The notes: generated from the letters alone by a model not told the origin. Shown: positions 1,827 through 50,317, counted from the first letter of the whole stretch. The stretch: DNA of 61,840 nucleotides, filler included, from Choristocarpus tenellus KU-1152 (GCA_964200185.2; 12 parts of 12 records of this genome joined end to end with filler, not necessarily neighbours in it); one strand, 5' to 3'. A program made the numbers and translations.

Positions 1827-3756
1827 TTAAGAAATTTTCCAAGCCTGCAAAAAAAAAATATTTCACCCCAAGCTCCCAAAAAAGTCAATTTATAAAAGTG
1901 GTAAGAATTGGCGGATTGGCATGACTATGAAAGAAAACAATGATGGTATGAAGCATTGAAACATACCATAAAAGATATGTGTATACCTTTAGAATATCAT
2001 ACCATAGTACTGATACATTGATGCCCCCAATATCTGGTTGGTAGGAATCTCCGATTTCTTGCCTGTGCCAAATTCCCTGAAGATCATCTATTTGAACTAC
2101 GATATATTTTTTTTCAGTATCCCCTCTCACCGTGAGTAATCAATCCCTCTATATGGAAGGCCTGTGAACATGCCGGCTTCCGCACTTTGATCCTTTGTGC
2201 CCACCACCTTTGTCCCTTGGAAACCAAACCTGCATCATGCCACAAATATCGTAGGGGATGTTTCCGGAAGATTTGCACATTCAAGGAGCGACTTTTTCTT
2301 GTACTTCTGGTGGGTCTTAAGAAATATAAATAGATATTTTCATTCCGAGCAAAGAGGTGGGTCATTGGCCAAATGTGTAGTTTGCACTTGTCTACTCAAA
2401 AATGAAACACAGCCTCTACATTCCCTTTCCCCTCCCCTACCAATCTATAATTCCCTGTGCAATTTCTTGTACTCGTCGCCCCCCACTCTATCACCACTCC
2501 ATCCTGCTTGCAACACGGCACGGAAGCTTTTCCTACCTTATCGCCTCCGCCGCATGCCGCCGGAGTTGAACCGCCCGGACGGATCCTATACCCAGAAATC
2601 TCTCAATGGCGTGGAGTTCCAGCGATCCTGACATCACTTTCGCCAGAATCTCCAGAGAGGGGCAAGAGAAGAAGTATGGGTTGCAGAAGGGGAAAGGATA
2701 AGGGAGGTATGTTTACGTTGTTCCCAAAGACACGTAGACACCAGCACATCATCGCCATTGAAAAGAAATCCTCTGGCGTGGAGGAAAAACCTACAGCACG
2801 ATGAACGTCTCGAAGGGTTGAATTGTGAAGTCAAGCGGCGCTCAAGTAATTACTTGATTCTTTCCGACAGTGGCAATGTCTTCCAAATCCTCCTCCATGT
2901 GTCTTACCGCCTCATCGGTCTTCTCGTTAGCATCCACTGAACTCGCCCCTGTAGTGGAACCTTTGTGATTCATCTTTCGCTTCTTAGGTGCGGGGGAGAG
3001 TTTGACAGTGGGGCCATTGCTTCCCGTTAGGTCAACCATCGTCCTTGCTCGATATATTTGTCGAAGGCTAACGTTGATTCCTCGAGAGCGCAGTTCATTC
3101 TGGAGTTCACTAGTCTTCACCGATGGGTCCCATTGCTCCACCTCTGCGAACTGGAAAGCGAGAGCCTTGACGCTAGGCTTTACACTCTCGCTGCCCCTGC
3201 AACCACGGTGTTCGGGGTTCGCGATACTCGAAACCTTCCAGGCCCCACTCGCCTGCTTGGTGGCCCTGAGGATGAAGTCACATCCAGTGCAGCCAATTTT
3301 CTTCTGCCTACTCCCCCCCAGTAAGCTCATCACTCCTCGTCCTTGTCGCATGAGGCTTGCCTCGCATGCCAGACGCAATGTTTTGCTATCGTTGAACACA
3401 GATCCAATACCAATGTCTTGCGAAAAAATCCCTACAGGAGTAGATGTGCGAAAGGCGGGTAAGGTTGCTAGGGATAGGCCTGTGGTACTGATGGGAGCAG
3501 AAGTGGAAATTGGGATAGGTGCGGAAGAAGTAGTGGAAGAGGTTCCTAAAGATGCTGTAATGGAAGAGGAGGGACCTAACGATGGTACAGTGGTGGGGGC
3601 AGCACCAGGAATGACTGGTGCATTTCTCTCCGTGGGACAGTTTTCCCCAAGACGGAGTCCCATTTGAGGTGAGTTACTAGGGGAAGAAGAAATGTCCGTG
3701 GTTGGAAGTCCATTGGTCATAGAATTATCAACATGTCGCTCTTCAGTTGTGGACAT
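1827..3756 (-). CDS. Spliced Mutator/MuDR-derived protein (WRKY/GCM1-type zinc finger, no DDE domain seen); model has unresolved junctions
   Basis: Large exon from ATG 3756 contains FNDSKTLRLAC...CTGCDFILRATKQASGAWKVSSIANPEHRGC...ELQNELRSRGINVSLRQIYRAR, typical of the MuDR N-terminal domain. Phase-compatible GT-AG exons follow: ..2717, 2627-2537, 2306-2131, 2096-1987, 1844-1827 (AWKIS*). The junction near 2850 needs a frameshift or unusual splice, and the 2130-2097 intron is only 34 nt. Confidence 0.55.
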
Positions 3757-4859
3757 TGTGTAAGTCGAAGGTATACCAACCCACCTCAACCTTATTTGTG
3801 CTCTTCTCTCCTCCCCTCCCAAAACAAGGGTACAGGTACAATATTTTTTTTTCATGGTAGGGAGTATCGTAGAACTCGGTTATATATTTATTTACAACCA
3901 ATATCAAATTGAAATTTACATACTACCAGTACTCATATAATCTGTACACAATATTAGGGAATACTACTTAGTAGACCTTTGACTGTAAGTAAGGTAAGCA
4001 ACCTATTGCTTTGACTGACATCCTTCATTACTATTTCGATAAATTAAAAATAATATCGGGGTATTTTCATCCCCAATCATTGATTTCTGATATACGGTGT
4101 AGACAATGGAAACAATTTACTGAGTGCATGTACAAGTTCCTTAGGGTTGGTTGGTCACCGACGTCTGGTGTTGGTGTGGACATTTATTTGGTTTCGTGGA
4201 GTGAATTGTATCACATAATGTAAAATCAAAAATATGTGTAATGGTTTCCACAAATATGGGAAGGCATTTCCCGCGGTGCATGCCCCAACTGGACACTGTA
4301 GTTGGCTGCCTTCATCAAGGTGTTGAGAAATCTCGACCTCGACCCGTCACCTCACATCTTTGCCCTGACAGGAACTGGACCCTTTACGGGTTTTGTGTTA
4401 GAGAGGGAAGAGGAGGAAGCATGACATGATTCCTTGAGTCTTTGCACACATTGCGGCTTAAATATCAAGACATCGTTAACATACGAACTACACTATATAT
4501 ATAATAGTATGACCAACATACGAACTATAGTAGGACTTGATTTATGTCCGTCTAGGGGTTATTTTCTTCTTCTCCACACTCTACGGTTGATATTATGAAT
4601 AAACCACCTACATAGCTCTCCGTCACCAATCAATCATGTTTTCTCAATTAAGGTGTATGTCTTGGGCGTGAGTTGGGTTGATTGGGTCCCAGGAGGAGGC
4701 ACATATATATGTACTAATCGTCCAGGAAGCATATGCCGACTGTGCGTTTGGACGCTAATACGAAGGAAGAAGCACAGTAAGTCGTTATTTGGATATCCTG
4801 TCTATCATGAAGTCCCACGTTTGAAGTTGCTTATATATTGGCAAGCATTTTCGAACAAC

Positions 4860-5037: not shown

Positions 5038-7619
5038 TTTGTGTACTCAGAGGTGGATCTGTCAAGAAGTCCAACGGGGTAGGTGTTTTAAGCAAGGAAG
5101 AGATCTATTGCTTTCTTGTGAGCAGTATACATGCTTTTGGAAGGCGTGCATCCTACACTCTGCGCCCAGTCTTTAAAAGTTCCCTATATACACATTTCTT
5201 GTTTGTTATTTGTATTTCCGTACTACTACCCTACTTCATTTCAACAAGTACTGCTAATGTTAAGAGTCGGAGTGATTTTGACGTGTGCTAGAGAACTGTT
5301 GAGTCATTTGGTATTCTGAGTCATTTACTGTAAGGTTTGGTGAGCCTCATCTAGTGATGGTGTCTCACTCTCTTCTCAACTGTGATACAAGCTAATAAAC
5401 AATACTATAACTGGTTGTGTGGGACAACAGATCGTCAAGGACTGCTTAACAAGTAGCAGTCGTAACAAGTAGACGATGACCTCTGCTATCTACTAATAAT
5501 ATTGTCAGTTACCCTTCATGAAGTCAAAGGATGGATCGCTGCAGTCAGTCAAAGACTAACATATAGTAAGTATAGAGTAGTAGTTCCTATAGGTCGATCT
5601 CTTTTATCATTATCTACTACCATCAGCGTAACGCCCTCTTAAATCCTTGTTGGGTTTTCCCTCTAAAAACCACACATACCTCTACCTGCTACTACCCCCA
5701 GAAGTGACCATATACAATATACTATCGAAACAATATACTTTGAAGCAAAGTAGCAAAAAAAAAAACTGAAAAAAATAGGCAGGCGGCAACCAGTAGAAAG
5801 TGCACTATCAATATTTTAAACACCTTAGCAGGTAGTGGACGAGAACCAACATCAACTAGAAGAAATATAGCGTCTCACTTTTGTGACCCACCCATTTCTA
5901 GTTTTGTATTCAGCTTCAACATCAAGACCTACTGAGTCGATATACTCTCCTACTAGATAGAACTCTATCGTAAACAGCAATAACAATTAAAAAAAAACTA
6001 GTATTGTAAGCAGAATGGGAATATAATTTAAAGTAGTTCTCTCCTGCTGCAAGGTTTGCATTCCATCTGACTGTCCTTATATCATTTTGTGTGCACCACA
6101 GAGACAAGAGTGTGATGAGTCTATTATGTCACAACAGGCAGCAGTAATAATTTGAGGCAAGCAAACCTTTCTCTCCATATACTAATATCAAACAGGTTAA
6201 TTGAGTAACAACACACCTCAGACAGACCTTGCAGCCTTCCTACGAGGTGTAAGAGACACTACCGTTTCATTGACCGTAATACGCACATGTATGCTACAAC
6301 AAAGAAAATTATTTCATCATCGTTCTCCAGAGTCACTCCTCCTACATGACAACGGCACTGATGATCAACATGACGATGAGCCTTATCTCTCCCCTCTGTT
6401 CCTCACAACATAGATAAACAACACGAAATACGCACATAACAAAAGGCAAGGAAGGTGTAACGGCCTCCTCAACATGTATGACCATCCATCCACCATCCAC
6501 ACAGCTAGCACACTTTCCAACACGCACTACACATCTCAACATTTATCTGTTCCTGCCCCAAAAACCAAGCTGAAAAAACCATCGCCTGCGGCAGACAAAC
6601 AGACGCCCATGAGGCAACACAGTAGAAAATGAAGCACATAAGTGTACTTCATTCACACACAACTACGATTCTCAGTTCATCCTTCCAACCAACTGACCCC
6701 CTTTCTGTCCTATCAACCCCACCAAATAAAAATCACTTCTTCAATTCTCTTTATCCATTCATCTCTGGTCCCACTCCCCCTCCCCACCCCCCACATCTTC
6801 CAACCTCACTGTTACCCTCGAGTCACCACTTTCCCTGCCCCCACCTCGACCTCAGACACATGGAGATCGCCAGGCAAAACCTACAAGTCGCCTGGTCTTG
6901 TTGTCTTGTAATCACCATTTTTTTTTATCTATTCCAAGTACCACTCACTGTAGATGATGTCCCCGCAGCCCTCACAACAAAAAACAAGAACAGTACACCA
7001 AAACAAAACAAAAATCAGCACACACTACTAGTTGGCCTTCTCAGCAGAGACACCTCGCCCAATCAGCTCTGGGCATACACTTCCACTGTTTCCCCAACCA
7101 CCTCGAAATTCCTAGTCAAAAGGGGGTCTTGAGGGCATGAGGTATCAGAGCTACAGATTCAGCAGTCAAAATCAAACAATTAAAACGCCTCCAAACTCAA
7201 TCTTTCACATTCACAATAGCACCACACTGTGAATGAGGTAGAATTGGTAAGCGTTGGTAGCACCACAGGGCAATTCCCTACCCAAGTGAAAAATAAAAAG
7301 CAAGATAGCTACAGCCTACACAGCCTTCCTTCATCTCCCCACAGCCTCAGAAAACATTTGTGAAAGGATGTCTTGTATTCTTATCGTTACCCAGACTTGA
7401 GCGTGTTTCACGAGGAGTAAACAGTCACAATACAAAAAAAGAGTCTAGCAGATAGCCAGGAAATGGGTGCCAGGCTCTGATATAGCTACCCTGTAAAGCA
7501 CACAGCAGACTGTCCTGACTGCCTGTAACTCCTAGCCTCCCCCAATCCCCCTTGTTCCTTCTTCCATATGTCCTGTACTCTCCTCACCCTCCCCACTCCC
7601 ACTCCTCCTTCCCTAATTT

Positions 7620-9284
7620 TCAGGCATTAGCAAAGAGCCAATTCAGCACCTCTTCAAAATCGAAACCAACCGCTGCCGTGGCCCTATCACAGTCCTCAAT
7701 ATTGAACCCTGACAGTTACAAGGCAGTTACGTTTTGATATGATAGGCATGTGTGTTCGTTACAGTTATGTACTTTGAATATGGGATATAGCGGGGTTGGG
7801 TTGATTGGATGGCGGGTTCTTTCTTAAGGAACTGAGGTCTGAGGTGACCTCACAGTAGACTCCAAGGCCTAGACAGAAGTCTATTCACACAACAAATAGC
7901 AGGCCAACAGCATAATAGAGTGTTACCAAGAGGAATGAAGAACGAGCAGGTAAATGCCTGTTTTTACACAAATCAACTACAAAATAGCAGTTAGAGAATG
8001 CAACACTGGGTGTCTGTCTTAGTCACCAATACTACTGCCGTGGAAATGTAACAGTGTGAGGGCTCTGGCACAGCTACTCAACACAGATCAGAAGTCTAAC
8101 ACACAAGAAGCAAAATGGATACCACCATAAACAGGCGAAACAACTGTGAAAGGTGTTACTAATCCAATGTGAGGAATGCAACCTAAGAACAGTATGAAGC
8201 CACAATGAAATATCTCAAGCTTGATTCTTGCTATCTACTCCACTCACCCATGTCGACAAGTCGGGCATACAGCATGTCCACCATAGCCTCATTGTTAGCT
8301 TGGTGGTTGTGTCGCTGTGGCAACCCAGCCCCTCCCCACGCCACTGTTGAAGACCTTGGTGCACCAACCTCTGGCACAGGCGAGGGTGCAGGTGCGCCCC
8401 AACCCGATGCGCCTGACAGTACAGCAGCCACCGGCACTGGTGATGGTTCAACTTGTCCCCAACCTGAAGGACTTGCCACCACTGGTTCAGGCTCACCCCA
8501 ACCTGAAGGACTTGCTGCCACTGGTTCAGGCTCACCCCAACCTGAAGGACTTGCTGCCACTGGTTCAGGCTCACCCCAACCTGAAGGACTTGCTGCCAAT
8601 GGTTCAGGCTCACCCCAACCTGAAGGACTTGCTGCCACTGGTTCAGGCTCACCCCAACCTGAAGATCTTGCAGGCACCGGTTCAGGCTCACCCCAACCTG
8701 AAGAACCTGTCGGTACAGCAGCCGCTGGCGTAGGTGCTGGTTCAGCCCCCCCCCAACCAGAAGAACCTGTTCGTGCAGCAGTCACTGGCACAGGTCCCAC
8801 TTCAGGCTTCCTCCAACCTGAAGAACCTGTCAGTGCAACAGGTTCTGGTGCAGGTGCTGGGTCAGACCCCCCCCAACCTGAAGAAGCCGCATGCACAAGT
8901 TCAGAGTCTCCCCAACCCGAAGGAACTGCTGCACCAGGTGCAGGCACTGGTGCCACTGGTCCAGCAGTGTTCCAGTTGCACGAGGATGATACAGGGGGAT
9001 TGGGAGGTGGTGGGGGTCGCTGTCGCCGTACCTGTTGTTGTTGCTGATGCAAAGTCTGTGAGGACGGTGAGCTACTTGTAGACCCCTGATCCAAGGACCC
9101 AGAGTGAGCAGGAGGAGACCCCCATGCTGACGGGCTCGGCTTGTCTGACATCATGGAAGGGGTTTCAGCTGCAGTTGCAGTTGCTGGGGCCGGGGGTGGA
9201 GAAGATCCCCAATCTGAGGGGTTCTGTTTATCAGATGCCAGTGAAGAAGCCGCAGCTGCAGGGGTCGGGGGGGAAGAAACCCCC
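7620..9284 (-). CDS. GW/WG-repeat protein with C-terminal UBA domain (5'-partial; exons <9284-8248 and 7708-7620)
   Basis: Frame is open from the contig edge and has ~15 (S)GWG/WG motifs in a P/A/S-rich chain. Donor ATG G|GTGAGT at 8248/8247 joins in phase to acceptor TGTCAG|GG at 7709/7708, giving LYARLVDMGFNIEDCDRATAAVGFDFEEVLNWLFANA*, a UBA-type MGF...NWL pattern. Confidence 0.8.
8457..8700. repeat. Coding 39-nt tandem repeat (~6 copies) encoding SGWGEPEPVAASP
   Basis: CCCCAACCTGAAGGACTTGCTGCCACTGGTTCAGGCTCA in near-perfect tandem copies. Confidence 0.95.
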
Positions 9285-9384
9285 NNNNNNNNNNNNNNNN
9301 NNNNNNNNNNNNNNNNNNNNNNNNNNNNTTAATTAATTAANNNNNNNNNNNNNNNNNNNNNNNNNNNNNNNNNNNNNNNNNNNN

Positions 9385-9450
9385 AGGGTCTACACAAGGG
9401 TGTCCATTTGGGCCATAACCGGGAAAAGTGCACTTACATTATCCTTCCGA
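9385..9450. mobile_element. MITE family A internal fragment at contig start
   Basis: GGGTCTACACAAGGGTGTCCATTTGGG...GGAAAAGTGCACTTACATTATCC matches 31245-31303. Confidence 0.8.
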
Positions 9451-9869
9451 GATCGGTCCTAACACCATAGCTGCTTCCCAGCAGTTAAAAACTGACCTCC
9501 ATGTGGTAGATATTGACTTGAATATGGACAAGACCTTTGCCGCACCACCCCAGGGCCACCAACCCAGGCCCTCAGAACTGGAGCTTCTTTCTAAAGCAGG
9601 AATCAACCTAGCCCCGAACCCAAATGGTTTTGTCATATTGGGGGCTCTGGTGGGAACGGGTGGCTTTATACATGCCCATAATGACTGAGGTGATCGAGAG
9701 CTCTGGGACACGAACGTTGGCTACACACCTCAGCGAGATGGAGGACAAACAGATGGCCTGGCTCCTCAACTCCTGGTCCCTCTCCTCCCGCCTAGGCTAT
9801 GTCGCTAGTGTCACTCCCCCCCACCTGGCACGCTCCACCATGGAGCAAACAGACAACACCTTGTTATGA
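9451..9869 (+). pseudogene. Non-LTR retrotransposon RT C-terminal/thumb fragment (CRE/SLACS-like), frameshifted
   Basis: IDLNMDKT...GFVILGALVGTGGF then EMEDKQMAWLL...SRLGYVASVTPP, resembling the post-YxDD region of early-branching LINEs. Confidence 0.6.
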
Positions 9870-10019
9870 ACACTATAAAAGATAATGGAGGTAGCAGACT
9901 CGACAGAGGTGACGGATTTTTTTTAGGAGGGGTGTAGCAATGGGTCTCTCCACCTAGAGACCTACCAACAAGTACAACATAGATAGTAGTAACACAGGAA
10001 ATAGGAAATAGAAAAACAT

Positions 10020-10125
10020 TTTTCACTTTTGTGACAACTGTTCTTAAAAAAAATTCAGACATGTGAATAGTTCTCATTGCTTTTTCCCATACCACATCTG
10101 GAAAATTTCAGAGGGCATAATGATA
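10020..10125. repeat. Dispersed repeat, probably a DNA-transposon subterminal region; related copies at ~1690-1745, ~29885-29995 and ~38190-38282
   Basis: Shared CAACTGTT(A)CTT and CACAT..AAAT(T/G)TCAGAGGGC(A/G)T motifs; the ~1690-1745 copy has only the second motif. Confidence 0.6.
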
Positions 10126-10669
10126 AAACTCAATTTCGAGGAATGTTGTACAAATCCTGATTTTTCGATATAAGTTGGTTACCATGTACACATGATTTGT
10201 AGATACCACTCCAAATTATATCAACACATACAAATTATTTGGCCTACAGTGTTGGCAGTCACCTCCTGCATCAACTTTGTCGTGTCATAACTTTTGATCA
10301 ACGATTTTTTTAATTCATGAAAATTCGTTTGTTGTAATCACATGATCATGCTTAACCTTATTTGATGGGTCTCGGTTGGTCAACTTGCAGTAATGGTGAG
10401 AAATACAGGACCATACCTAAATCAGGTAGTCCGCGCGCGCGGTTCGCGTGGGTTGCCGTGTCGCTCGCGCGAACCGCGCATTTGAGGACGATTTTGACGC
10501 CAGAAGAGGCCATCATCACCAAGAGAACATGGGCATTGTTATCTCTCCATTCTCTTTCCACTATTTCCCGTTTATGCGATGTCGTCACCTGCTGGCTAAG
10601 GCTCACTAATGGGGGCCCAGGCCTCTGAACCAGACAATCCATGCCAAGTCAAATGAGATATTCTGAAGG

Positions 10670-10985
10670 TGCCGGCCTCCTATGAAACTTAAATGTCTTG
10701 TACATCCTGTCCAATTTGGTGCACCCAATGCCTTTCTTGTTGGAATATATCAGGTGGTAAGCAATACTCAACCTGAAGAACCTCTCCACAATTACTCCGG
10801 GCAGTCCCCTTCCTCCTTAAGACTGACAGGAATGTTGGGTCTCATTCTAGGCAACGTGTAGTCACAGTGACCTCGTACATAGTGCTACGCCCGCCTCCAG
10901 ACCATATCTATCGGGTTCAATTCACAGTGTCCTGTGAGGGAGGGGCAGGCAACAACTTGGAGGTCATTGGGCGTCACAATGTCCT
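10670..10985 (-). pseudogene. IS630/Tc1/mariner-like transposase C-terminal relic
   Basis: Translation GHCELNPIDMVWRRA*HYVRGHCDYTLPRMRPNIP and, after a frameshift, MYKTFKFHRR; contains stops. Confidence 0.65.
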
Positions 10986-11040
10986 GTGAGTGGCTTAAAC
11001 AGTATTATGCCGAGGTCCGCCCACGTACCATTTGGGTGGG

Positions 11041-11358
11041 GTGACCCATCTTGATTCTTTTGAAAGGGTTGCCCAACGAGTTAATCAATGATGAGCATAT
11101 CAAATGAAAGCTCTGGATCTAAGGTATCGACTGGTGCAAAGCAATAATTTCGCGAAAATAGTTTTGGTCATGATAGTTCATTCCGGAGCATTTCCAAGGT
11201 TGTACCGAACACATCCGGTTAAACTTTAACCGTACCAACAAAATTTCCGAAACAATTCCTTTGCACCAGCGATAGCTTAGATCCAGACCTTTCCTTTGAT
11301 ATGTTTATCATTGTTTAAATCCTTGGGCAACCCTTTCAAAAAAATCAAGACCGGTCTC
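11041..11358. mobile_element. Foldback/MITE with ~100-nt imperfect terminal inverted repeats
   Basis: TCTTGATTCTTTTGAAAGGGTTGCCCAA...TCTGGATCTAAG...CTGGTGCAAAG is mirrored by CTTTGCACCAG...CTTAGATCCAGA...TTGGGCAACCCTTTCAAAAAAATCAAGA. Confidence 0.85.
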
Positions 11359-12292
11359 ATCCTAGAGGCGACTCCCAACATTATAGTCGTTGAGAGAAGA
11401 TAATTGTTCTGATATATGTGCCCCTAGTTCATCTTCCTATACAAATCTTACCTTGTGGTATAACAGGAAACAAGTAGTTCCGATTTTTTTAATGTGAATT
11501 ATGTCGAGTAACAATTGTGTGCAAATCTTAGGCAACTACTGTTAATACTACACATGTGTGCTAGTCGGTGTAACTCATGTAAGAGAGGGTAGGGGCAAGT
11601 AAAAATACCCTCTCTTATATCCTGATCCAGTCTTCTTGTATATAAGAGCGATTTTATTTTAAATCGAGGGTTGGTGATAAGAGAAACCTATGCTATATCG
11701 AGCAACAGTGCTTGTAGGTACTTTATACTTGTCCCCGAATGATGACAGAGCGACACCCTTGCTGTATGTGCTTCCCATGTGCCTTCAAGAGTAGATACAT
11801 GTGGATATGTATTGAACATTGCTCTCAGTGAGTCAAGCTGTTGTGGTGCAGCAAGCATCACATCTACACCACCCCTGCGCAGTATGCCAGTGTCGTATGT
11901 ATAGAGTACTGTAACTTTGGTAAATTGCACTCATTACAATGTATTCACTCATATATATAGTACACCTTCTCAAGAAAAGCATCCGCAAGACATTGGATGG
12001 CTGGAGAGACGACTCGTATTTCAAATCAAATCAACTTTCAAAGTCAATCTTCCTCCGATGCCCTGCCCTACGTATTCAAACAGTATCAAAAACTCCACCG
12101 TGGATCAAATACAGCTGCACCGCCATGCACCCCCCATCGCACGCCCTCAGCAAAACAACTTACTCGCTAATAAATAAATTGCGAATGCCAAAAAAATCAC
12201 GGATCTCCACTTGTTTGTTTGCCCTTGCCCCAATGGCACTGAGCCAAGCCAGCTTTGCTTTCCGGAGATGGTACGAAACATCATTCATGCTG

Positions 12293-14829
12293 TGTTGAAG
12301 TATTCCACACTGGACCCGCAGCTTTGGTACTTTGATGAAAGACAATGAATAGCTTGATGTTGATATGCAAAGTTAATATTACAAGGGGCTAGTAGTCTTG
12401 ATTCCGCTGACTGATTTGGTTGGTGAGAAAAGTGCAAACTACCATGTAGGATATGTAACGTCCACATGGATAATCGCAAAATAATATCTACTTATCATAT
12501 GTGACATATGATATATCAACGGATGATCCAGTATCAGGTCCCTACCATACATGAACGTTGTGTAGAGCTCAACTGAAATATATGGTAACATATATATCTG
12601 GCTCTACCTTTCCCAATCTGCTCCACCGATGGTGTCTATAGTGTATCAGCAGCACTATCAATGAACACTCTCCCTTGCTGCGCAGACACTATATACCCTT
12701 AGAATCTCCTTGTCTGAAATTTGAAGAAAGAAACAAACTTCTGCTAGTTCTCTCCAAAACAATGCAACAAATATAACCTAACATCAATGTTGACGTTGGG
12801 TCTGTTTAGGTACAAAAAAATCAGTCATCAATCTACTTCTGTTCTATTGCAGTCTGTGTAAACATTCTTGGGTCAATTCTCCTGTGGGTCGTTGACAATA
12901 CTATCTTGCGCCTCCATTAATCAACAAAATCCTCCCTACTACATCATGACGTACAATGAATAGAAAAACAGTAGTTACCATCAATACTGATCTGGGGTCA
13001 TTAAAATCAGTCACCCATCCGTCCTATTGCAGTCTCAAGTGGAAACATTCTCAGGTACTTTCTCCTGCAGGTCGTTAGCAATACCATGTTTCGTATCCCA
13101 CAATCCATCAAATGGCAAGGTTCTTAGCAATACATGTAGCGTCTCCTACAATCAACAAAACCTCCCTAGCACATCACTATTGCAGGTCACTGGAACACAG
13201 ATGCTACCTCATATCTACCATCCTATTGTAGTCGCCAGTGGAAACATTATCGGATACTTTTCCTGCAGGTCCTTAGCAATACCATGTTGCATTTCCCACA
13301 ATCCATGAAATGGCAGGGTCCTAAGCAATACATGTAGCGTCTCCTACAATCAACAAAATCTCCCCAGTACGTCACTACTACAAGTCACCGGAATACAGTA
13401 ATATGGTGAGGCTGTTCCTACCTATTCTATCACAATCTCTACGAACACATTCTGGGGTGATTTTTCTACTGTGGGTCCTTAGCCATACCAAGTTGCATCT
13501 CCCACGATCCATGGAATGGTGGATCCTTAGCAATACCATGCTGCATCTCCCACGATCCTGGAAATAGCGAGGTCCTTAGCAATACTATGTTGCGTCTCCC
13601 ACTATAAACGAAATATCCCTAGGGCAACGCCTAAAGTGAATCCTTGGAAAAGAGTAGCACAAATTAGTCGACTCCCTTACAACTGACATACCATACACAC
13701 AGACGAAGAAAATCCCTCCCTGACTTTAATAGCTATTCTGTCTAAAGTCAGTCTGCATACAACATCACAGCTGTCACTTGACTACTGTGGGTATGCACTA
13801 AAATACACAAGACAAATAGGGGACAGACTAAAAAAATCATTTGAAAGAACAACAAACACAAGGGAAGATAGTGACAAAGGGAAATGTTCCATGTCACGGA
13901 AGAAGTAAGAGCTTCTAATGCAGCCTTCTGACCCGTCCAGTCTCGAACTGATGTCTTCCACCTCTCAAGATTCACTTGGGGGAGGAGTCGTGGTTGATAC
14001 CATATGCGATCCCTCCTTAGCCCCCCTTCCAGAAGGTCTTCCTGTCCTCTCCCTAGCTCGAACAGTCAGGGGACATTCGCTCACCTCATGACCTAACCCT
14101 ATGCATCTCATGCAGCTTCTACCTTGGTTGTCATCTCCCCTCAGTCTTGTAGCCCAATCGAGGTCAGGGCAGTCGTACTTCGTGTGACCATCTTTGCCGC
14201 ACATAAAACAGACTACACAGCCCTTTCTGCGGCCCTTTCTACCAGCAGCTTTACTACTCGCCCTCCTTCCTGAAGCAAGAGTGTGATCATTCCGTTTTCG
14301 CCATCCATCTCCACGATTGGAGAGGTTAAGCGTTGATGCAGCTGGCACACCATCTCCTACTGTTACCACTCTCGCATTATCCTTTGAACTTGGGTGCAGT
14401 TAAACTTTTCGATTAAGGTGCCTTCCTTGACTCCACGTCCAAATCGACCCTTCACAGACTATGTCAGGGTCAAGTAGCGCAAGGTTGCAGCTACAAACAC
14501 TTCGTATAACCTAAGAATGAACCGCAAAACCGAAGAAATCCTCTCTCTTCTTCCCAGCAAATGTGGGGAAGTTGGATACCTTGGTGGGGTTGCTGGCAGA
14601 TATCTTGTATACAATTACTTGCTCACTACTAGCCTCGTCAATCAGCACAATGTCCCAGGAACAATCGGTCCGCTAGGTAGCGTGTTGAAATGTTCCACAC
14701 TGGACTCGCGGCTTTGGTGCTTTGATGAAAGACAATGAATAGCTTGACGTAGATATGAAAAGTTAATATTACAAGGGGCTAGTGGTCTCGATTCCGCTGA
14801 CTGAATTGGTTGGTGAGAAAAGTGCAAAC
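12293..14829 (-). mobile_element. Non-autonomous LTR retroelement: 3' LTR 12293-12667, PPT 12668-12678, internal tandem arrays, gag relic, 5' LTR remnant 14683-14829
   Basis: ~147-nt direct repeat at 12293 and 14683, TGTT...AACA LTR ends, purine tract GCAAGGGAGAG on the minus strand abutting the LTR, no pol visible. Confidence 0.7.
13965..14369 (-). pseudogene. Gag-like ORF with two CCHC zinc knuckles
   Basis: CFMCGKDGHTKYDC and CMRCIGLGHEVSEC (CX2CX4HX4C). Confidence 0.75.
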
Positions 14830-15083
14830 TGTTGAGAAGCTTGGCGCACATGAGGCTCGTCGCCGGAAGCTAGCAGTTGAATTACATGGTAAAGCACACA
14901 CTGAATTATTAATTGCCTGTCAACCATCCATCATCACTGACCTGTGGATTAATGTTGACTTATTATATTTTATATACGTACGTAATCTGTATCATATCTA
15001 ACCAAGCATAAACGTACGCATAACCTATGTTGTATACTTGTGTCAGCACAAACAACGTAAGGATAACACTAGGTTATTCGACA
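14830..15083 (-). repeat. 3' LTR of a Ty1/Copia element (254 nt); PPT at 15084-15095
   Basis: TGTCGAA...CTCAACA termini on the minus strand, directly preceded by GCAAGGGGAGGA and downstream of the RNase H ORF. Confidence 0.8.
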
Positions 15084-15162
15084 TCCTCCCCTTGCTGAAA
15101 ACAAGTACTAACTCTCAAACAATCATAAAACAAAAAAAATAAAACCAAACACAAATGTTGTG

Positions 15163-15933
15163 TCACATGTTCATCAAAAACTTCACATGTTGTCTAAAAA
15201 CTCGAACTGGCAAATTCTTGGTCAAGACATCTGCCCTCTGGTTTGCAGTACCAACAAAAGCAACACAAATCTCTCCTTTTCTAGATAAATCCCTTAAACA
15301 ATGATGTCGGACATCAATGTGCTTTGCTCTAGTAGAGCTTGTGGCATTTCGTACTAGTTTGTATGCACCATCGTTATCCTCAAACAAATCAATGCAACGC
15401 CTAGGAAACTGCGGCTGAATAAACTCAAAAACACTTCTCAAGAAAAGTAATTCCTGTGCCACACTACTAAGTACATGTATTCACTCTCTGTGGAAGACAG
15501 AGCTACAACCCTTTGCACCTTTAACATCCAAGATATTGCTCCTCCTGCAAACATAATTGCTCCTCCAGTCACTGACCTACGATCATTCCAGTCTCCAGCA
15601 TAACTAGCATCAGCATACGCACTCAACTCACACTCAGTACTAAAACCACTAAAACTCAATCCAACACTGGGACACGTATTCAAATATGCTAAAATACATT
15701 CCACTGCACGCCAATGAGTGACTTTGGGATTGCTACTGTACTTGGCAACTGCACAAACTGCATTTGCAATGTCAAGCCTAGTCATAACAGATGCCCATAT
15801 CAAACTACCAACTGTCTCTCTGTATGGTGTATTTTCATCAACACTTGGATGATTCTCACTCTTGTCTAAAGCCCTTGAGAGATCATGGGGTACCGACCTT
15901 TTCTTTGCACCATCCATACCAAATCTTTGACAA
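15163..15933 (-). pseudogene. Ty1/Copia pol C-terminus (RT end plus RNase H), frameshift near 15465
   Basis: TPYRETVGSL..TRLDIANAV, HWRAV..ILAYL, AYADASYAGD..DRRSVTG, VALSSTESEY, EDNDGA, KHIDVRHH, ADVLTK. Confidence 0.92.
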
Positions 15934-16000
15934 GGCTCAAAGTATCTGGGAGGGGGTGGCGGCTGTCCATTTGGGGTCAATTTTTGTATGTCGCGATTTT
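15934..16000. mobile_element. MITE family A end abutting the Copia pol relic, truncated by the gap
   Basis: GGCTCAAAGTATCTGGGAGGGGGTGGCGGCTGTCCATTTGGGG. Confidence 0.85.
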
Positions 16001-17957: not shown

Positions 17958-20900
17958 ATGCGCCTGGCCAAAAATATGGAACAGTCCACGATCGATCGGT
18001 CGACAACTACGCCAGCATCCTCCAGAACCCTTCACCAATCATACCAGGTTAATGACATATTCCTTTGTTCGCCCCATCGAGTTAGTCTCATTGCACTGAA
18101 CAATCACTGATGTGTTCTATGTAAAGGGGAAAGGAAAATAATTTTGAATCATGTTCTCCATTCGTCCTTCTTTAGGGAAAGCATCTCGTCCTGCATATTC
18201 ACTCGAGCTTCCTCTCCTCTTCCTTGGCACAGCACGAGTTGCTAGTCTCACCATGTGACTTCACCAGCCTAGCTGTGGTAGCTGACGTTGACGCAGTCCA
18301 AGAGGAAGCAGAGGGTGATGACTCGAGATGGCTCCTATGGGTGGAGAAGCGGAGGGGAATCCTAGGTTGCAAACGTATCACCTGCCCCAGACCCGAGATA
18401 CCAAGGCCAGCCAGCAGACCATCCCACGAGCCAGATTCGACGAGTAAACAGCGTTATATTCCCCTTCTGGTTAGTGCAGCAGTTTTTCACTGTAGCGACA
18501 CCAGCAGAGCCTGCAAACTCTTACGCCATATTCAAGTAGTCAATTCCGTATGATGCATTCGAAACACAACCCAAGAGAGACTAGTAATATGCTTCAGAAG
18601 TACACCCAGAGTAAGAAGGAAGATCAACCTTTGCAAATTTTGGATCGGCGCAAGAAAATGGGACTAGGATGGAGGGTAATAGTGGGTGGTAGGTTTCATG
18701 ATTGGGTATACCTCTTATTTCTCTTTACGCACATTCAACGCGTTTTTGCAGACATCACCAAAAAGAACTGGAAGTGCCAAAATGGAAGAAATGATCAAGG
18801 GAGGCGACATTAACACAGGCCAATCAGATACGGAGGACGTGGCGCACAGCCAAGTAACCACTGATAGCCCCCAGCAAAACAAAGAGGAGAGAATCTTACT
18901 CGATGGCCTTAATCAGCCACTGAAAATTGCAATCGCTGCTGTCAAGGCCTCTGCCAGGGGCACCAATGATGTCCATGACTCAAGACATCAGAAGGGATGT
19001 TTCATCTTGGAAAACGGCAATGACAGCTCAAACATTTCAAAATCTTGTGCAAAGCAGCAAACTAAGAATTCGCTCCAACCATCCAAAAGAAGGCAATGTA
19101 TGTCAAATGGCAGTGGTCGGATCTGTTATTTACAGTGGGGCAAAAGCAGTACCATAGTTGTGACGGAGGGGCTCATAAATCCAATTGGCCTATTCGTGAC
19201 CTCACAACTAGATGTGTATATCCTGGCAGAGAAGGAGTTCTGTCAATCCGAGAACCAAGGAGACCAAGACTGTGGTATGTATCTAAAGAAGAGGGGAGAT
19301 GAAGGGCTAGTGTGCAGGCGAAGTCTTTATCATGTGCTTTTCCTTCATGGATCCCAGGTTACCAAATTGTTGTGCGAAAACGGCGACCAGAGAGAGGAGG
19401 TAGGGGAGGAGCTGAGGTCCTTAAGTCCACTGAGTGGGTACACTGCTTTGAGTGGAAAGGGACAGGGGTCAGAGAAGATTCCCAGGGAAAGACGGAGCCA
19501 TGATCTTAGTCAAGGTCAAGCTAAGTGGTATTGTAAGGACCGAGGGATTGGATGTAAAGACAAGGGTGCTAGAACAGATCAAGAGGACCAGGCCAGAGTT
19601 GGGCAGAAGGAGGAAATGAAGTCAAGTGAAGAGGAAAAACGAAGTGATACAGATGATACCGACTGGGAGAGCAGTGGAAGTGATGAAAAGAGTGCTGATT
19701 TAAGAGTCACAGTCAAATTTCGCTCAAACACGAAGAAGAAGCAGCAGCAGGTGTTAGAACCTTGTGAGGTATTGACACTTCCAGGAACCACAACATGTGG
19801 TATGGTGGAGCAACCGGTTGATTTATGTGTCCTTGAGAATGGGACGATCATCATTGCCTTCCGGTGTAAAGCGTCTCCTGAGACAGTCATATGCATGGCC
19901 CCTGTGCAGGGCTTGATGAGGGCATACTGTCCTCAAAAGAAGATTTTGGCTGGATGTCAAATGTTATCCTTACCGAGCACACCGGAGTTGGAGAAGCACC
20001 AATGCCATCAAGACCTCCAATCTGTTGCATTTGATCACAGAAAATCTTATATTATTAAGCAAGGCCTCCCTGTCATCACTGGCATTGCACTTGGCCTCAA
20101 GGGCATGGTTTTTATTTCAATGTGTGGGGCTGCAAATGATGGTACCACAACAGCTATAGCAGCCATCCAACTTGTTGGGGTGAGAACAACTCTTGACCCA
20201 AATGTTGAGGGAGGAGTTTCACCACCTTTGATGAATGAAGGACGGTTTGTAAGGGATGAAGAACGTTTTGGGGAAGGAGTAGCTGCTATGAGGCGAGGGA
20301 ATTCCAAGCCAAGTTTCCAAGACAGCTTCAAGGAACCAAGTTCTGTCATTCCCATTGTCTCTGGCTTCTGTTCAGCGGCAGCAGTGGATGCATTGAACAA
20401 CTTGTAAGATTAACCGGGACAGCCAATTCTTCAGTGTTGATCCCATCCTCTCTCTTCTCCCTTACCTTTTCTGTATTCAGATCGTCAGACTATGTTAGAA
20501 GTTGGTCCATGTTTGCAGTCTTTTCAAGTAAATCCATCTCATACCATTATCTATTGAATATAATTAAATCCCGAAATGAAAACAGTAGCAATTATTTTTT
20601 TAAACAATGATAGGTGGTATGCCCTGTCATGTGCATATAATACTTCAAATTATATTTTTTCAGAGTGGGTTAGGTGGACTCTCACACGGTATGATTACCA
20701 AGTATACCATCGGCTTATGTCCAAGAATACAGTCAGCCAAATTCCTCACTTGCATAAATTTTGAGAGTTATCACAGCAGAAACACAGTAGATATGAACAG
20801 AGCAGAGGTGATGGGAAAAAAAGCATCAAACATTGAAAACTTCAAAGTTGATACCTCAAGGGCACTGCATCACCTGTGACTATTAATGCTGAAATTCAGA

Positions 20901-23900
20901 GTTGTTGGAAAACATAGCAGTACAGGAGCAAAATGTGTTCAAAGCACATGGAATATCGATATACCTCGAGTAGTGGAGAGAGAGCTTGACTTTCCTTTAT
21001 TGCTCCTGGGGGCTATTCAACAGAAGGAACTGCCATCCAAGTATATGGTGCATTAGATCTGTCTTTGTTAGATACTCCTCCGATCCTCCGAGATGGGTGC
21101 TTCGTAGATTGGCAAAACTAGGATATATGTTGGAGTTAACAGAATGAACGAAGCGTGCGGTGACCCTTTGTACCATGCAAAGTGACATAAGTATTGTTTT
21201 GCAGCCCATATGATAAACCAAACTTTGCAAGGCTGTCAACCTGCAACCGTACCCATGACCGAAAAAAAAAAAGGGGGGGTAGAACTGTTGAGGTAGAAAA
21301 CGCGCAACAACCAACCTGTTTTTCAAAATATCAGCGCTCTGATTTGTACTGGTCCTGTCAGAAACTGGCTCTCTTGGTCAACTACACCTCTCCTATCACC
21401 AGGTTTTATGTCACAGCCAATAGGGAAGGCGAGTGCCACGCTCTGTGGTGCCACAGCTCTGGGGCATGCCTTCGTCGTCTCAGTTCCATCCAATGCTCAG
21501 CCACAGTGATGAGAATACCTGTAGTGGACAAGGTCTTGTTGCACAACAGAGGGCCAAAAAACGTAGAATCGTCTGGGGGTCCAAGCAGACAACGTGGTGT
21601 GGTTTCTAGGGATGTTATTCTAAGCGCAGCACTAGCAGAAGAAGGAGAAAAAGAAGTTGTGACAGGAGGGCAAGGGGTGGAAGGATTGTTTGCTTCACGG
21701 GGCAAGAGAGAGTCAGTGGAATTTGCCACATCTCCTTCAGAATTTGATGCCATAAGAGGAGCCCAGGGGGAGGAGGAAGAGGGTGTAAACATTGTGGTCG
21801 TGGCAAGGTGTCGGCCGCTGATACGGAAGGAGGTGGAACATGGTGTCCGAGCAGCAGTGAGGTGCACTGGGAAGGAGGTGACCGTTGCTGGGGACGAGCT
21901 GCCACTCAAGAGGGAAAGGAGCTTCATGTTTGACCGTGTGTTTGGTAGGTAGGTAAATGGAATTGAGAGGGGGTGCAGTTGGGGGTGATGACTGTAGTTG
22001 GATGAGGAGATAGCTCCATCAAAGCTATTTTGAAGACAGCAACAGTATGTTTCTGTGATGCTCTTGTGGTAAATAAAAAGCATGGGAATGCGAGGTTTTG
22101 GCCTATAATGTCCTTGTCATAGTGGATTCGATAAGCATGACAAGAAAAGTCTCATGAACCCTCCCCCTATGTTTCGCCGTCATTGCCCCAGGGCCCTATG
22201 TGAGCCAGGCATGCGTATATGCTGAAGCTGTTGCCCCAGTGGTACATAAGGTGCTTGATGGATATAACTCCACGGTCTTTGCGTATGGACAGACTGGATC
22301 GGGAAAAACACACACCATGGAAGGCGGTCTTGGCAATTCTGATTCTCTTGATGCCACGGAAAATAACAGGAGCACCCCCAGTGCAGATGTAAGCTTCACT
22401 CCTTTCTCCTAGGCAACACAGTAGTCAGTATTAGGGACTACACCAGTGGCAAAAACGATGGTACAAACCCACTGTGCCAATCATACTTCTCGCTTGGTCT
22501 ACTGGTTCATTCAATGTAGCGAGTTGCACTGCTTCATCTCCCACTCAGGTTGCAGGTCTGGGGATGATGCCAAGGGCAGTGCACACTGTATTTGGAATGA
22601 TCAATAATGCAGTTGGGCGCAGCAGCAATGAAGATGATGACAGGAGTAACAGAAGGGTTGTGGAGGGGGAGGGACATTCACGGAGGCATTGGGTATATAT
22701 ATCTCACATGGAGATATATAATGAGCGAATCTATGACCTGCTCTCATCAGACCATGAAGAGATGAGACCGTCACCTGTGTCAACAACAACTCCCATGGAA
22801 AGATCTTCACCCAAGGTATTGTCACCTAAAAGATCAAGACCTGTGGTGTCACCACCATCACCGAATAGACACCACTATAGGGGCTTCAAGACTGAGGAGG
22901 AGGAGGAAAAAGGGGGTACTGATGCGTCGTCTCCGAGGGGGAGAAGTGCACATCCGTCGCTGAAGTTGTCGATGGATACTGAAAACTTGAGACCATCAAC
23001 TCCTTCACCTAGGAGAGGAGGAAACACAAGGGGCTTGGGGCTGAAGATTGAAGAGCATCCTGAGTTGGGAGTACATGTGAGGGGGCTAACCCAGGTGGAG
23101 GTGCAGAGTCCAGCAGAGATCTTTGCCATCATGGCCAGAAGCAAATATAACAGGAGGACAGCTGAGGTACAGAATTTGGTACATCTTTTCCATCTACTTC
23201 CTTGGTGTTGACAGTGGTTATTGTTTCACCACAAAAGGCGATTTTCGAATTTCTCTGACAAATTGTCTGGTGAATTTATTGTAGTGAACCAGTCACTGAT
23301 GCCAGTGGCACATGCATGCAATTCTTACTGGGCCTGTGTTTAGGGGGGTCTAGCCACTCCATAGCGCACTAGCCTTCAAAGCAGGCGATGATCTTTTGCA
23401 GTGTATATTGCATATGGACCTAAAACCTTTAAGAGGGTAGGAGCTTTGCCTTGTTTGTCCTTTCGGGGCTTGACTTCCCACAGGTTTTTTATGCTCTTTT
23501 TCGGTTTTCTGTGCAAATACAGTTACCTAAGATGTATACCTGATTATTAAAGGTGAGTCCGGAGCAAGGATATTGACACTTGCTAACAAACACTATAGCA
23601 AAAATCCATCAAAATCGCAACTTAGGATTTATGATCCCGAAAGGATGCAGCCTTACCCTCTTAAATGCTTTAACTATGTATTATCATAGATGAAAGGAAT
23701 GTGAAATATATTAGAGTACCACATATTCACTGAACCAAGTTTGCTATTATAGTGTGGGCTCTGGCATCACATTGTATCCAAGAGGTAGAGTGCAGCAATA
23801 TACAGAGTACTTGTCACAGTGTCATTCGAGGTACCTTGAATTGTTACAACTCTGTACAGCACAAATTTGTGTGGAGGTAGTTGAGTCTTTTCAGACAAAA

Positions 23901-26900: not shown

Positions 26901-27045
26901 TTACCAATTTTGTGTGAAAGGGAAGTTGAAGGGTGGAGGGCTGCATCACCAACATAGGGGTAGGCTGGTTGGGAAAAAAGATGTACATACTGAGAATGAT
27001 GGCAGCAACGACATTCACCGCAACAGTACATTGGATGCCCACTAA
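17958..27045 (+). CDS. Kinesin-like protein, ~1753 aa, central kinesin-5-like motor. Exons 17958-18047, 18233-18469, 18752-20403, 21403-21944, 22192-22388, 22549-23166, 24177-24371, 24995-25186, 25507-27045
   Basis: [91 protein letters not shown]. All 8 introns are GT-AG and phase-compatible (5262 nt total). The first three exons are less certain than the motor exons. Confidence 0.85.
23417..23676 (+). mobile_element. MITE family B (~260 nt) in kinesin intron 6
   Basis: Imperfect TIR ..AAA.C.TTTAAGAGGGTA / TACCCTCTTAAATGCTTT..; internal sequence shared with copies at 27988, 37331, 48467 and 59903. Confidence 0.85.
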
Positions 27046-31087: not shown

Positions 31088-31214
31088 NNNNNNNNNNNNN
31101 NNNNNNNNNNNNNNNNNNNNNNNNNNNNNNNTTAATTAATTAANNNNNNNNNNNNNNNNNNNNNNNNNNNNNNNNNNNNNNNNNNNNCTGAACCAATTCC
31201 ATTCTAGAGTAACA

Positions 31215-31396
31215 GGCTCAAAGTATCTGGGGGGGGGGAGGGGGGGTCTATACCAGGGTGTCCATTCGGGTACTGACCAGGAAAAGTGCACTAACATTAT
31301 CCGTCCGGCTCATGCAACCAAATCACCCAAAAATCGTGACATGGGAAATGGGCGCCCACATGGACAGCTGCCACCCCCCCCCAGATACTTTAAGCC
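31215..31396 (+). mobile_element. MITE family A, only complete copy (182 nt)
   Basis: TIR GGCTCAAAGTATCTGGGGG / CCCCCAGATACTTTAAGCC with AACA direct repeat on both flanks (putative 4-nt TSD). Confidence 0.9.
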
Positions 31397-31420
31397 AACA
31401 CCCACTCCAATCAAAAAAAG

Positions 31421-50292: not shown

Positions 50293-50317
50293 AACCCTAA
50301 CCCTAACCCTAACCCTA
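50293..50317. repeat. Interstitial telomere-like (CCCTAA)n; shorter runs at ~1114, 1585, 35865, 51243 and 51301
   Basis: AACCCTAACCCTAACCCTAACCCTA. Confidence 0.8.

What the first reader, a model, noticed from the sequence alone, without database searches (positions are those of the whole stretch)
7620..9284. GW/WG Argonaute-hook-like repeats fused to a UBA domain: a possible non-animal GW182 analogue
Seen: a disordered P/A/S-rich frame with ~15 Trp-Gly/Gly-Trp motifs, mostly SGWG, spliced in phase to a hidden 89-nt last exon that completes a UBA domain (LVDMGF...ATAAVGFDFEEVLNWL). The ORF track misses this exon. Established: reiterated GW/WG motifs bind the Argonaute PIWI domain (GW182/TNRC6, Tas3, NRPE1, SPT5L/KTF1), and GW repeats together with UBA is the architecture of animal GW182, which is regarded as animal-specific. 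Inference: a convergently built Argonaute effector linking small-RNA silencing to ubiquitin or condensates in a non-animal lineage. The N-terminus is lost at the contig edge, so the protein family is unknown.
Basis: partly seen in the sequence, partly recalled or inferred. Interest (0 to 1): 0.78.

Follow-up and report, generated by a model that had tools for sequence, protein, structure and literature searches.

The report
Tryptophan-repeat tail ending in UBA domain

Summary
A minus-strand exon (9284-8248) has 16 Trp, 15 next to Gly (11 SGWG), 13-50 residues apart. A 539-nt GT-AG intron joins it in frame to an 89-nt last exon. One run's contig skips exactly this intron and continues about 2 kb past the stop. 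The last exon matches UBA domains (ESM Atlas 0.92; top PDB sequence hits), and one other organism's copy is 20/28 identical.

The GW182 reading is only partly supported. The UBA is terminal, with no Q-rich region, PAM2 or RRM after it. About 2,980 more transcript letters lie upstream and are absent from this contig, so the motifs are likely the tail of a protein of up to about 1,370 residues. That layout resembles plant SDE3/NRPE1/SPT5L. Seven Trp lie in one recent 39-nt tandem array. The Argonaute-hook score is marginal (11.5; cut-off 7; known binders 75-586), with Pro/Val/Glu spacers.

No orthologue of the Trp exon, no Argonaute of this organism and no lineage could be obtained. Non-animal GW/WG Argonaute partners are already known. 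Verdict: a real, unusual Trp-motif-plus-UBA tail with its partner unproven (Argonaute about 0.4 overall).

The parts
8248..9284 (-). Coding exon, 5' end cut by a scaffold gap: Pro/Ser/Ala/Gly-rich region with 16 Trp, ending in the first part of the UBA
   Evidence: Open frame; covered by X3 contigs at depth 220-336 except inside the tandem array
8336..9211 (-). Trp-motif region: 16 Trp codons, spacing 13 (7 times), 20-21 (6 times), 29, 50; flanks Gly/Ser-rich, spacers Pro/Ala/Val/Glu-rich
8457..8703 (-). Recent 39-nt (13-residue) tandem array, 6.3 copies, 95% matches; holds 7 of the 16 Trp; copy number not confirmed because run contigs break inside it
8679..8885 (-). Older 60-nt (20-residue) repeat, 3.5 copies, 74% matches; Trp kept in register in all four units while spacers differ
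8252..8317 (-). Predicted helix leading into the UBA loop (UBA helix 1 with an N-terminal extension)
   Evidence: AlphaFold2 on 8249-8500, single sequence: helix at residues 62-83, pLDDT 74-93 there
7709..8247 (-). Phase-1 GT-AG intron, 539 nt, inside the Gly codon of the UBA MGF loop
   Evidence: skipped by X3 contig 18
7620..7708 (-). Last coding exon part (89 nt): predicted UBA helices 2 and 3, then the stop
   Evidence: ESM Atlas UBA clusters 0.92; PDB UBA hits; helices 6-16 and 20-30; 20 of 28 identical to P0001
5581..7619 (-). Inferred 3' UTR, at least 2,039 nt, with no further joint listed
   Evidence: X3 contig 18 covers 5581-7707 without gaps
9285..9384 (.). Scaffold gap; the gene's 5' part (about 2,980 transcript letters) lies in it or elsewhere in the genome
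   Evidence: X3 contig 23 is 3,107 nt and only its last 127 letters lie on 9158-9284; X2 contig 16 runs 742 letters past 9284

Best explanation
This is the spliced 3' end of a real gene whose product likely carries a disordered tail of Ser-Gly-Trp-Gly motifs that would dock into tryptophan pockets of a partner, most likely Argonaute, and ends in a predicted ubiquitin-binding UBA domain. SHOWN: frame, motifs, spacing, splice, stop right after the UBA, long 3' extension, about 3 kb more sequence upstream on one contig. PREDICTED: UBA fold, disorder. INFERRED: each Trp inserts into a pocket on the partner; Gly/Ser flanks give it room; stiff Pro/Ala/Val spacers of 13 or 20 residues let neighbouring Trp reach two pockets or several partner molecules; tandem duplication tunes the number of sites; the terminal UBA adds weak binding to ubiquitylated components. 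The unseen N-terminal part (up to about 990 residues) would carry the real activity. On this reading it is a plant-style hook appended to a larger silencing cofactor (as in SDE3, NRPE1, SPT5L, SPT6L), not a GW182-style scaffold.
For: Trp-next-to-Gly excess survives collapsing the array. All 15 spacings are at least 13 residues, and human AGO-binding sites use two Trp ten or more residues apart (PMC9262622). The three residues either side of each Trp are 30% Gly and 26% Ser and average +0.71 on the published hook matrix, against -0.60 for spacers. My re-implementation of the Karlowski dos score gives 11.5 for residues 85-325, above the 6.99 cut-off, which 1 of 275 other frames of this window reaches. 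In NRPE1, SPT5-like and GTB1 the WG platform is encoded in the 3' region of a large gene (PMC2910046), and SDE3 binds AGO1 through a C-terminal GW region. The array is acidic (net -5 to -8 per 51 residues), and plant AGO1 pocket partners need acidic patches. AlphaFold2 gives coil for the 61 residues with the last three motifs.
Against: No binding test was possible. The score is far below known binders: SDE3 74.5, NRPE1 170, KTF1 586; it equals the weakest untested Arabidopsis candidates (10.8, 11.1). Composition departs from known hooks: Pro 19% vs 3%, Val 10% vs 2%, Asn 0 vs 8%, Asp 1% vs 8%, Lys 0.5% vs 7%. The second score (ics) was not computed. A charge-hydropathy proxy calls only 4 of 10 windows disordered. 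Trp pockets are variable outside animal AGOs (PMC12477606), and this organism's Argonaute was not seen. WG repeats also serve without RNAi (yeast Spt5). Conservation of the motifs in orthologues could not be checked (searches found no relative of this exon).
Confidence: 0.33

Rival explanations
1. One reading: a convergent GW182 analogue, a mostly disordered scaffold that binds Argonaute and recruits deadenylation or condensate machinery to repress small-RNA targets.
For: GW motifs followed by a UBA is the order in GW182. A five-Gln run and a five-Pro run lie upstream of most motifs. A GW182-like non-animal protein has precedent (Cryptococcus Gwo1). The unseen N-terminus could hold effector motifs.
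Against: The UBA is terminal: a stop follows, then at least 2 kb without a listed joint, and P0001 ends two residues later. No PAM2-like pattern in the seen exon (recalled pattern). The GW182 UBA is not strictly required for its activity, so sharing it says little about mechanism. No GW182 or other protein of 605-2000 residues scored E<=0.01 among 7,989 candidates (weak test).
Confidence: 0.1
2. A ubiquitin-binding trafficking or autophagy adaptor of the Ede1/Eps15 type: N-terminal folded domains, a Pro-rich linker whose Trp motifs bind coat or EH-type domains, and a C-terminal UBA that reads ubiquitylated cargo.
For: A long protein with a Pro-rich region and a terminal UBA is the Ede1 layout (1,341+ residues; PMC5328616). 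Some EH domains bind FW, WW and SWG peptides (PMC3279396). The best PDB sequence hit of the last exon is the ESCRT-I subunit UBAP1 (E 0.014). Pro/Ala/Val-rich spacers fit such linkers (recalled).
Against: No NPF, DPW/DPF, WxxF, PTAP, PPxY or clathrin-box pattern in the exon (patterns recalled) and no exact SWG. The UBAP1 hit reflects general UBA similarity only.
Confidence: 0.2
3. The Trp are generic stickers in a low-complexity linker that was recently inflated by tandem duplication. They promote self-association or condensates with no dedicated pocket partner, and the UBA is the only specific binding element.
For: 7 of 16 Trp sit in a 95%-identical array and four more units in a 60-nt repeat, so a few ancestral motifs explain most copies. 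No relative of this exon was found while a relative of the last exon was. The hook score is marginal.
Against: Outside the array the Trp-Gly core is kept while spacers diverge: Trp in 8 of 8 anchored units (ascertained on Trp), Gly at +1 in 7 of 8 with four different Gly codons. Three dispersed xWG motifs (residues 25, 54, 316) lie outside both detected repeats.
Confidence: 0.2
4. The motifs are CCR4-NOT/PAN3-type W-motifs, so the tail recruits deadenylases to mRNAs bound by the unseen N-terminus, without Argonaute.
For: Such motifs are defined as WG/S/T or G/S/TW, are rich in S, T and G, and act additively (PMC5314787). 15 of 16 Trp fit that definition.
Against: The definition is loose and is met by any GW motif. 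No RNA-binding domain is seen, and nothing was tested.
Confidence: 0.1
5. A phosphorylated repeat platform like the yeast Spt5 C-terminal repeats, on a large nuclear factor.
For: Yeast Spt5 has about 15 S(T/A)WGG(Q/A) repeats bound after phosphorylation, in a species that has lost RNAi (listing). Three xxWGGx motifs and 15 SP/TP sites occur here. About 990 upstream codons would fit an Spt5-sized N-terminus (recalled).
Against: 0 exact S(T/A)WGG(Q/A) matches; the period is 13-20, not 6; I know of no Spt5 with a terminal UBA (recalled).
Confidence: 0.07

Closest known systems
Plant C-terminal WG/GW Argonaute hooks: SDE3, NRPE1, SPT5L/KTF1, SPT6L/GTB1 (PMC2910046; bioRxiv 10.1101/2025.10.18.683247)
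   Same: Reiterated WG/GW motifs with Gly/Ser flanks in the 3' part of a probably large gene; tandem-repeat origin as in KTF1.
   Different: Terminal UBA; Pro/Val/Glu spacers with almost no Asn/Asp/Lys; score 11.5 versus 75-586; N-terminal domains unseen; binding not shown.
GW182/TNRC6 (animals; PMC4615383, PMC5314787)
   Same: GW motifs followed by a UBA; Trp spacing of at least 10 residues.
   Different: UBA terminal rather than central; no Q-rich region, PAM2, RRM or silencing domain after it; Trp region is probably C-terminal rather than N-terminal; no sequence similarity detected.
Cryptococcus Gwo1/Gwc1 (listed as 'GW182-like' and 'GW/WG protein' in PMC4778953 Table 1)
   Same: Precedent for a lineage-specific GW/WG protein in non-animal RNAi.
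   Different: Not compared by sequence; I saw no UBA described for them.
Ede1-type endocytic adaptors (PMC5328616)
   Same: Large protein, Pro-rich region, C-terminal UBA.
   Different: No NPF/DPW-type motifs here; EH and coiled-coil domains cannot be checked; regular SGWG repeats are not described in the passages read.
UBA domains of UBAP1, USP13 and UBP14 (PDB 4ae4, 1wgn, 2lbc, 1wiv)
   Same: Best natural sequence matches to the last exon, in register without long gaps.
   Different: Weak scores (E 0.014-0.53); they show domain type, not orthology.

Membership tests
GW182/TNRC6 | UBA in a central position, followed by further coding sequence | tested here: not met
   Stop within a few residues of the predicted last helix; contig runs 2,039 nt further with no listed joint; P0001 ends two residues later
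GW182/TNRC6 | Q-rich region, PAM2, RRM and W-rich silencing domain downstream of the UBA | tested here: not met
   No coding sequence downstream in the one spliced contig seen; rarer isoforms are not excluded
GW182/TNRC6 | GW-rich Argonaute-binding region at the N-terminus | tested here: inconclusive
   About 2,980 unseen letters lie upstream on X3 contig 23; their coding content is unknown
GW182/TNRC6 | Detectable homology to metazoan GW182 | tested here: inconclusive
   0 hits among 7,989 scored candidates and no Pfam family on the exon; weak tests for a low-complexity query
WG/GW Argonaute hook | Reiterated WG/GW motifs beyond chance | tested here: met
   15 of 16 Trp next to Gly; 10 of 11 after collapsing the array, 0 of 20,000 shuffles
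WG/GW Argonaute hook | Trp pairs at least 10 residues apart | tested here: met
   15 of 15 spacings are 13 or more; rule from PMC9262622
WG/GW Argonaute hook | Motifs in a disordered region | tested here: inconclusive
   P+G+S+A 49-71% and 1-4 I/L/M/F/Y/C per 51 residues, but the charge-hydropathy proxy is negative in only 4 of 10 windows; AlphaFold2 coil for the 61 of 345 residues folded
WG/GW Argonaute hook | dos score above 6.99 (Karlowski 2010) | tested here: met
   11.5 in my re-implementation with untrimmed ends; background 1 of 275. Marginal; the boundary rule is my reading of the method and the matrix is plant-derived
WG/GW Argonaute hook | Composition like known hooks (Asn/Asp/Lys present, Pro/Val scarce); ics score | tested here: inconclusive
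   Frequencies depart clearly; the ics score was not computed because its matrix is in a supplement I did not read
WG/GW Argonaute hook | Trp conserved across orthologues while spacers diverge | not testable with these tools
   No relative of this exon recovered; the DNA behind P0001 was not available
WG/GW Argonaute hook | Trp-dependent binding to an Argonaute with intact pockets | not testable with these tools
UBA domain | Three helices with an MGF-type loop between helices 1 and 2 | tested here: met
   MGF is formed across the junction (motif recalled). Helix 1 and helices 2-3 were predicted on the two exons separately; the three-helix bundle itself was not modelled
UBA domain | Similarity to known UBA families | tested here: met
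   ESM Atlas top clusters UBA, 0.92 with 194 of 256 features shared, 10 of 10 best family hits in one clan; top 3 of 7 PDB hits of profile A1 are UBA; both natural hits of 4 are UBA proteins
UBA domain | Pfam gathering score | tested here: inconclusive
   Only the exon halves were scanned: no UBA hit for either; P0001 scores 15.8 bits on UBA_7 against a cut-off of 27
UBA domain | Binds ubiquitin | not testable with these tools
   Needs a binding assay

The most novel reading that the evidence does not exclude
A lineage without GW182 has independently built an Argonaute effector in which a tandemly expanding Trp-Gly hook is coupled to a terminal ubiquitin-binding domain, so that small-RNA complexes are sorted, clustered or turned over according to ubiquitylation, and the unseen 3 kb supplies the repressive activity.
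Probability: 0.12. Interest if true: 0.75.

Novelty: new variant of a known kind. Interest (0 to 1): 0.38.

Why it matters
Lineages such as brown algae have microRNAs and an Argonaute but no GW182, SUO, KTF1 or Tas3 homologue by BLAST (PMC4513859 Table 2), so their Argonaute cofactors are an open question. A Trp-hook protein with a terminal UBA would be a concrete candidate that alignment-based surveys miss, and it would link silencing to ubiquitin directly. That value depends on three things not shown here: the lineage, the N-terminal domains and Argonaute binding. Without them the result is a correct, transcript-supported gene model for an unusual tail.

Tried and rejected
FINDING THE N-TERMINUS. 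No genome is held. The adjacent contig 9385-16000 shows repeat-level depth, and the 3,107-nt X3 contig is not among its 16 listed pieces (2,435 more not shown). A search with the first 54 residues gave 0 of 722 candidates. The whole exon against proteins of 605-2000 residues gave 0 of 7,989. Ten exact look-ups gave 0 of 10. The ESM Atlas gave no usable hit for the exon. Local tblastn found no second copy in the window.

FINDING ORTHOLOGUES. The search of 1.84 billion representatives with the last exon gave 2 hits: P0001 (kept) and P0002 (an unrelated SpaA-like repeat protein, rejected). Profile A1 recovered only P0001 among 262 candidates. Metagenome scans gave 0 of 236 and 1 of 329 stretches; the genome scan gave 2 loci from 40 stretches. 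L001-L003 are bacterial chance matches: an out-of-frame stretch, a stop-ridden frame and an unrelated ORF.

PLUS-STRAND ORF 8187-9047 (286 codons). Rejected as a shadow: no Pfam hit, it runs into the intron, and the abundant contig is spliced GT..AG on the minus strand. Its third codon positions coincide with those of the minus frame, so third-position variation cannot decide between the two.

OTHER DEAD ENDS. The first dos version with trimmed ends passed 116 of 301 segments and was discarded as uncalibrated. Fold searches with the two-helix model were uninformative (best Z 3.2, no UBA among 50 rows; 0 Foldseek matches at E<=0.001). No RNA holder is listed on record. Lineage: Pfam scans of 15, 99 and 14 frames gave only kinesin and zinc-knuckle families at E<=0.01; a PDB search with 32124-32460 gave nothing; earlier-finding look-ups by place or sequence were empty. 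No A[AT]TAAA occurs in 2.3 kb downstream, but under one AATAAA is expected, so this says nothing on lineage. No complex was predicted, for lack of a partner sequence.

Full report
OBSERVATION. The window is a fragmented eukaryotic scaffold with 12 spacer gaps and CpG observed/expected 0.52. On the minus strand a stop-free frame runs from the gap at 9285 down to a donor at 8248. It has 345 codons and 16 Trp, with 14 WG, 12 GW and 11 SGWG. 15 of 16 Trp touch a Gly, against 3.6 in shuffles (maximum 11 in 10,000). Seven Trp lie in a 39-nt array of 6.3 copies at 95% identity, and four units form an older 60-nt repeat. Removing five array copies leaves 10 of 11, still beyond 20,000 shuffles. Spacings are 13 to 50 residues, mostly 13 or 20.

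SPLICE AND TRANSCRIPT. Joining 8248 to 7708 removes a 539-nt GT-AG intron and gives one open frame that ends after 89 nt. Three runs of one study hold the stretch, none with its kind on record. In X3 a 2,389-nt contig at depth 336 skips exactly these 539 letters, with CT..AC ends on the plus strand, and its listed intron contigs have depth 2.6-5.9. X1 and X2 cross the intron unspliced and show the joint at depth 0. I infer that X3 is RNA and that the minus strand is transcribed. This is one run and may be the window's own source. The same contig continues to 5581, 2,039 nt past the stop, without a listed joint. A second X3 contig of 3,107 nt lies on 9158-9284 with only its last 127 letters, so about 2,980 letters, at most 993 codons including any 5' UTR, precede what we can read. 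They were not seen on the next contig, which is repeat-rich. The protein could therefore be up to about 1,370 residues, with the finding as its last quarter.

THE UBA. The junction falls inside an MGF loop (motif recalled). The last exon alone falls into UBA clusters in the ESM Atlas (0.92, 194 of 256 features, 10 of 10 best family hits in one clan). Its only natural PDB sequence hits, 2 of 4, are UBAP1 and USP13. A search of 1.84 billion representatives found one relative, P0001, a singleton from a 3,109-nt contig. It is identical at 20 of 28 positions and ends two residues later; its N-terminal part is probably intron read-through (inference). A two-sequence profile puts three UBA structures first among 7 hits (best E 0.014). 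AlphaFold2 predicts a confident helix at the end of the large exon and two helices in the last exon. Against this: Pfam found no UBA on either exon half, P0001 reaches 15.8 bits against a cut-off of 27, the whole domain was not scanned or folded, and fold searches on the fragment were uninformative. I regard the UBA as well supported and ubiquitin binding as untested.

IS IT AN ARGONAUTE HOOK? For: Gly/Ser flanks; spacing above the ten-residue rule for human AGO sites (PMC9262622, passages); an acidic array, which plant AGO1 partners need (bioRxiv 10.1101/2025.10.18.683247, passages); and a dos score of 11.5 against a cut-off of 6.99, reached by 1 of 275 other frames of the window. The matrix is from PMC2910046 (sections 4 part 1, 13 and 19 read). 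The boundary rule is my reading of the method, and the supplement with the ics matrix was not read and could change the call. Against: SDE3, NRPE1 and KTF1 score 74.5, 170 and 586; the spacers are rich in Pro, Ala, Val and Glu and nearly lack Asn, Asp and Lys; a disorder proxy was equivocal; Trp pockets are fully conserved only in animal AGOs (PMC12477606, passages); and yeast Spt5 carries S(T/A)WGG repeats (10.64898/2026.10.26.761550, passages) in a species without RNAi (abstract start of PMC4778953). Trp motifs also recruit CCR4-NOT (PMC5314787, passages) and bind some EH domains (PMC3279396, passage). No relative of the Trp exon was found, so the key conservation test is open.

IS IT A GW182 ANALOGUE? 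GW182 has an N-terminal GW region, a central UBA, then a Q-rich region, PAM2, an RRM and W-rich silencing segments; the UBA is not strictly required, and no homologue was detected outside animals (PMC4615383, first sixth and passages). Here the UBA is last and nothing follows. That fails membership. It lowers but does not exclude 'works like', since effector motifs could lie in the unseen part. The layout of a WG platform at the 3' end of a large gene is that of NRPE1, SPT5-like and GTB1, and a terminal UBA after a Pro-rich region is that of Ede1 (PMC5328616, passages). GW/WG partners of Argonaute outside animals are known, including Cryptococcus Gwo1, listed as GW182-like (PMC4778953, passages).

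LINEAGE. No call placed the organism. The window holds an intron-containing kinesin-5-like gene and transposon relics. Long low-complexity inserts and a 2-kb 3' UTR remind me of brown algae and their relatives, but that is recalled and untested; 'non-animal' remains an assumption. If it were such an alga the context would be relevant: Ectocarpus has one Argonaute and no TNRC6, SUO, KTF1 or Tas3 homologue (PMC4513859, passages with Table 2; PMC12026948, passages).

LITERATURE. I saw no paper describing a non-animal protein with WG repeats and a terminal UBA in three searches, read as listings only apart from the papers cited above: 5 papers; 8 papers; 12 of 21 listed, none holding 'GW182' or 'GW motif'. 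The library lacks most subscription papers. Five earlier scan findings propose Argonaute hooks for other Trp-repeat proteins, none with binding shown in the notes. I did not test them; they show only that this reading is often reached.

VERDICT. A real, transcript-supported gene end that the ORF track misses. I commit to a multivalent Trp-motif docking tail with a terminal UBA on a larger unseen protein. Odds: plant-style Argonaute hook 0.33, GW182-like scaffold 0.10, trafficking or autophagy adaptor 0.20, generic stickers from repeat expansion 0.20, deadenylase-binding motifs 0.10, Spt5-like phospho-repeat 0.07. New variant of a known kind; interest 0.38. Reading one 3.1-kb contig would settle much of it.

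Noticed in passing
window 21500-27045 (+): Multi-exon kinesin gene (Pfam Kinesin on four exons; best PDB hits kinesin-5) with a long insertion in the motor domain and a 519-codon tail frame that has an EF-hand-like stretch by eye but no Pfam hit.
   Followed up: partly
window 18683-20404 (+): 574-codon open frame with no Pfam family.
   Followed up: partly
window 31188-33020 (+): Probable exons of a long helical protein; resembles ciliary TPR-type proteins from memory, but no Pfam or PDB hit.
   Followed up: partly
window 13968-15998 (-): Retrotransposon relics: a CCHC knuckle and a copia-type RT/RNase H-like frame (recalled); very high summed depth in both runs laid.
   Followed up: partly
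window 2845-3879 (-): 345-codon frame with a Cys/His cluster like a Mutator-type DNA-binding domain (recalled) and a weak SAP match (E 0.065).
   Followed up: partly
window 5263-5452: High-copy repeat just beyond the end of the 3' UTR contig, summed depth in the thousands to tens of thousands in all three runs.
   Followed up: no
window about 1110-1130, 1585-1600, 50293-50317: Short TTAGGG-type runs (one search lists the last; the others read).
   Followed up: no
whole window: CpG observed/expected 0.52 with raised TG/CA, 0.32 in the 3 kb holding this gene's 3' end, suggesting CpG methylation including gene bodies.
   Followed up: no
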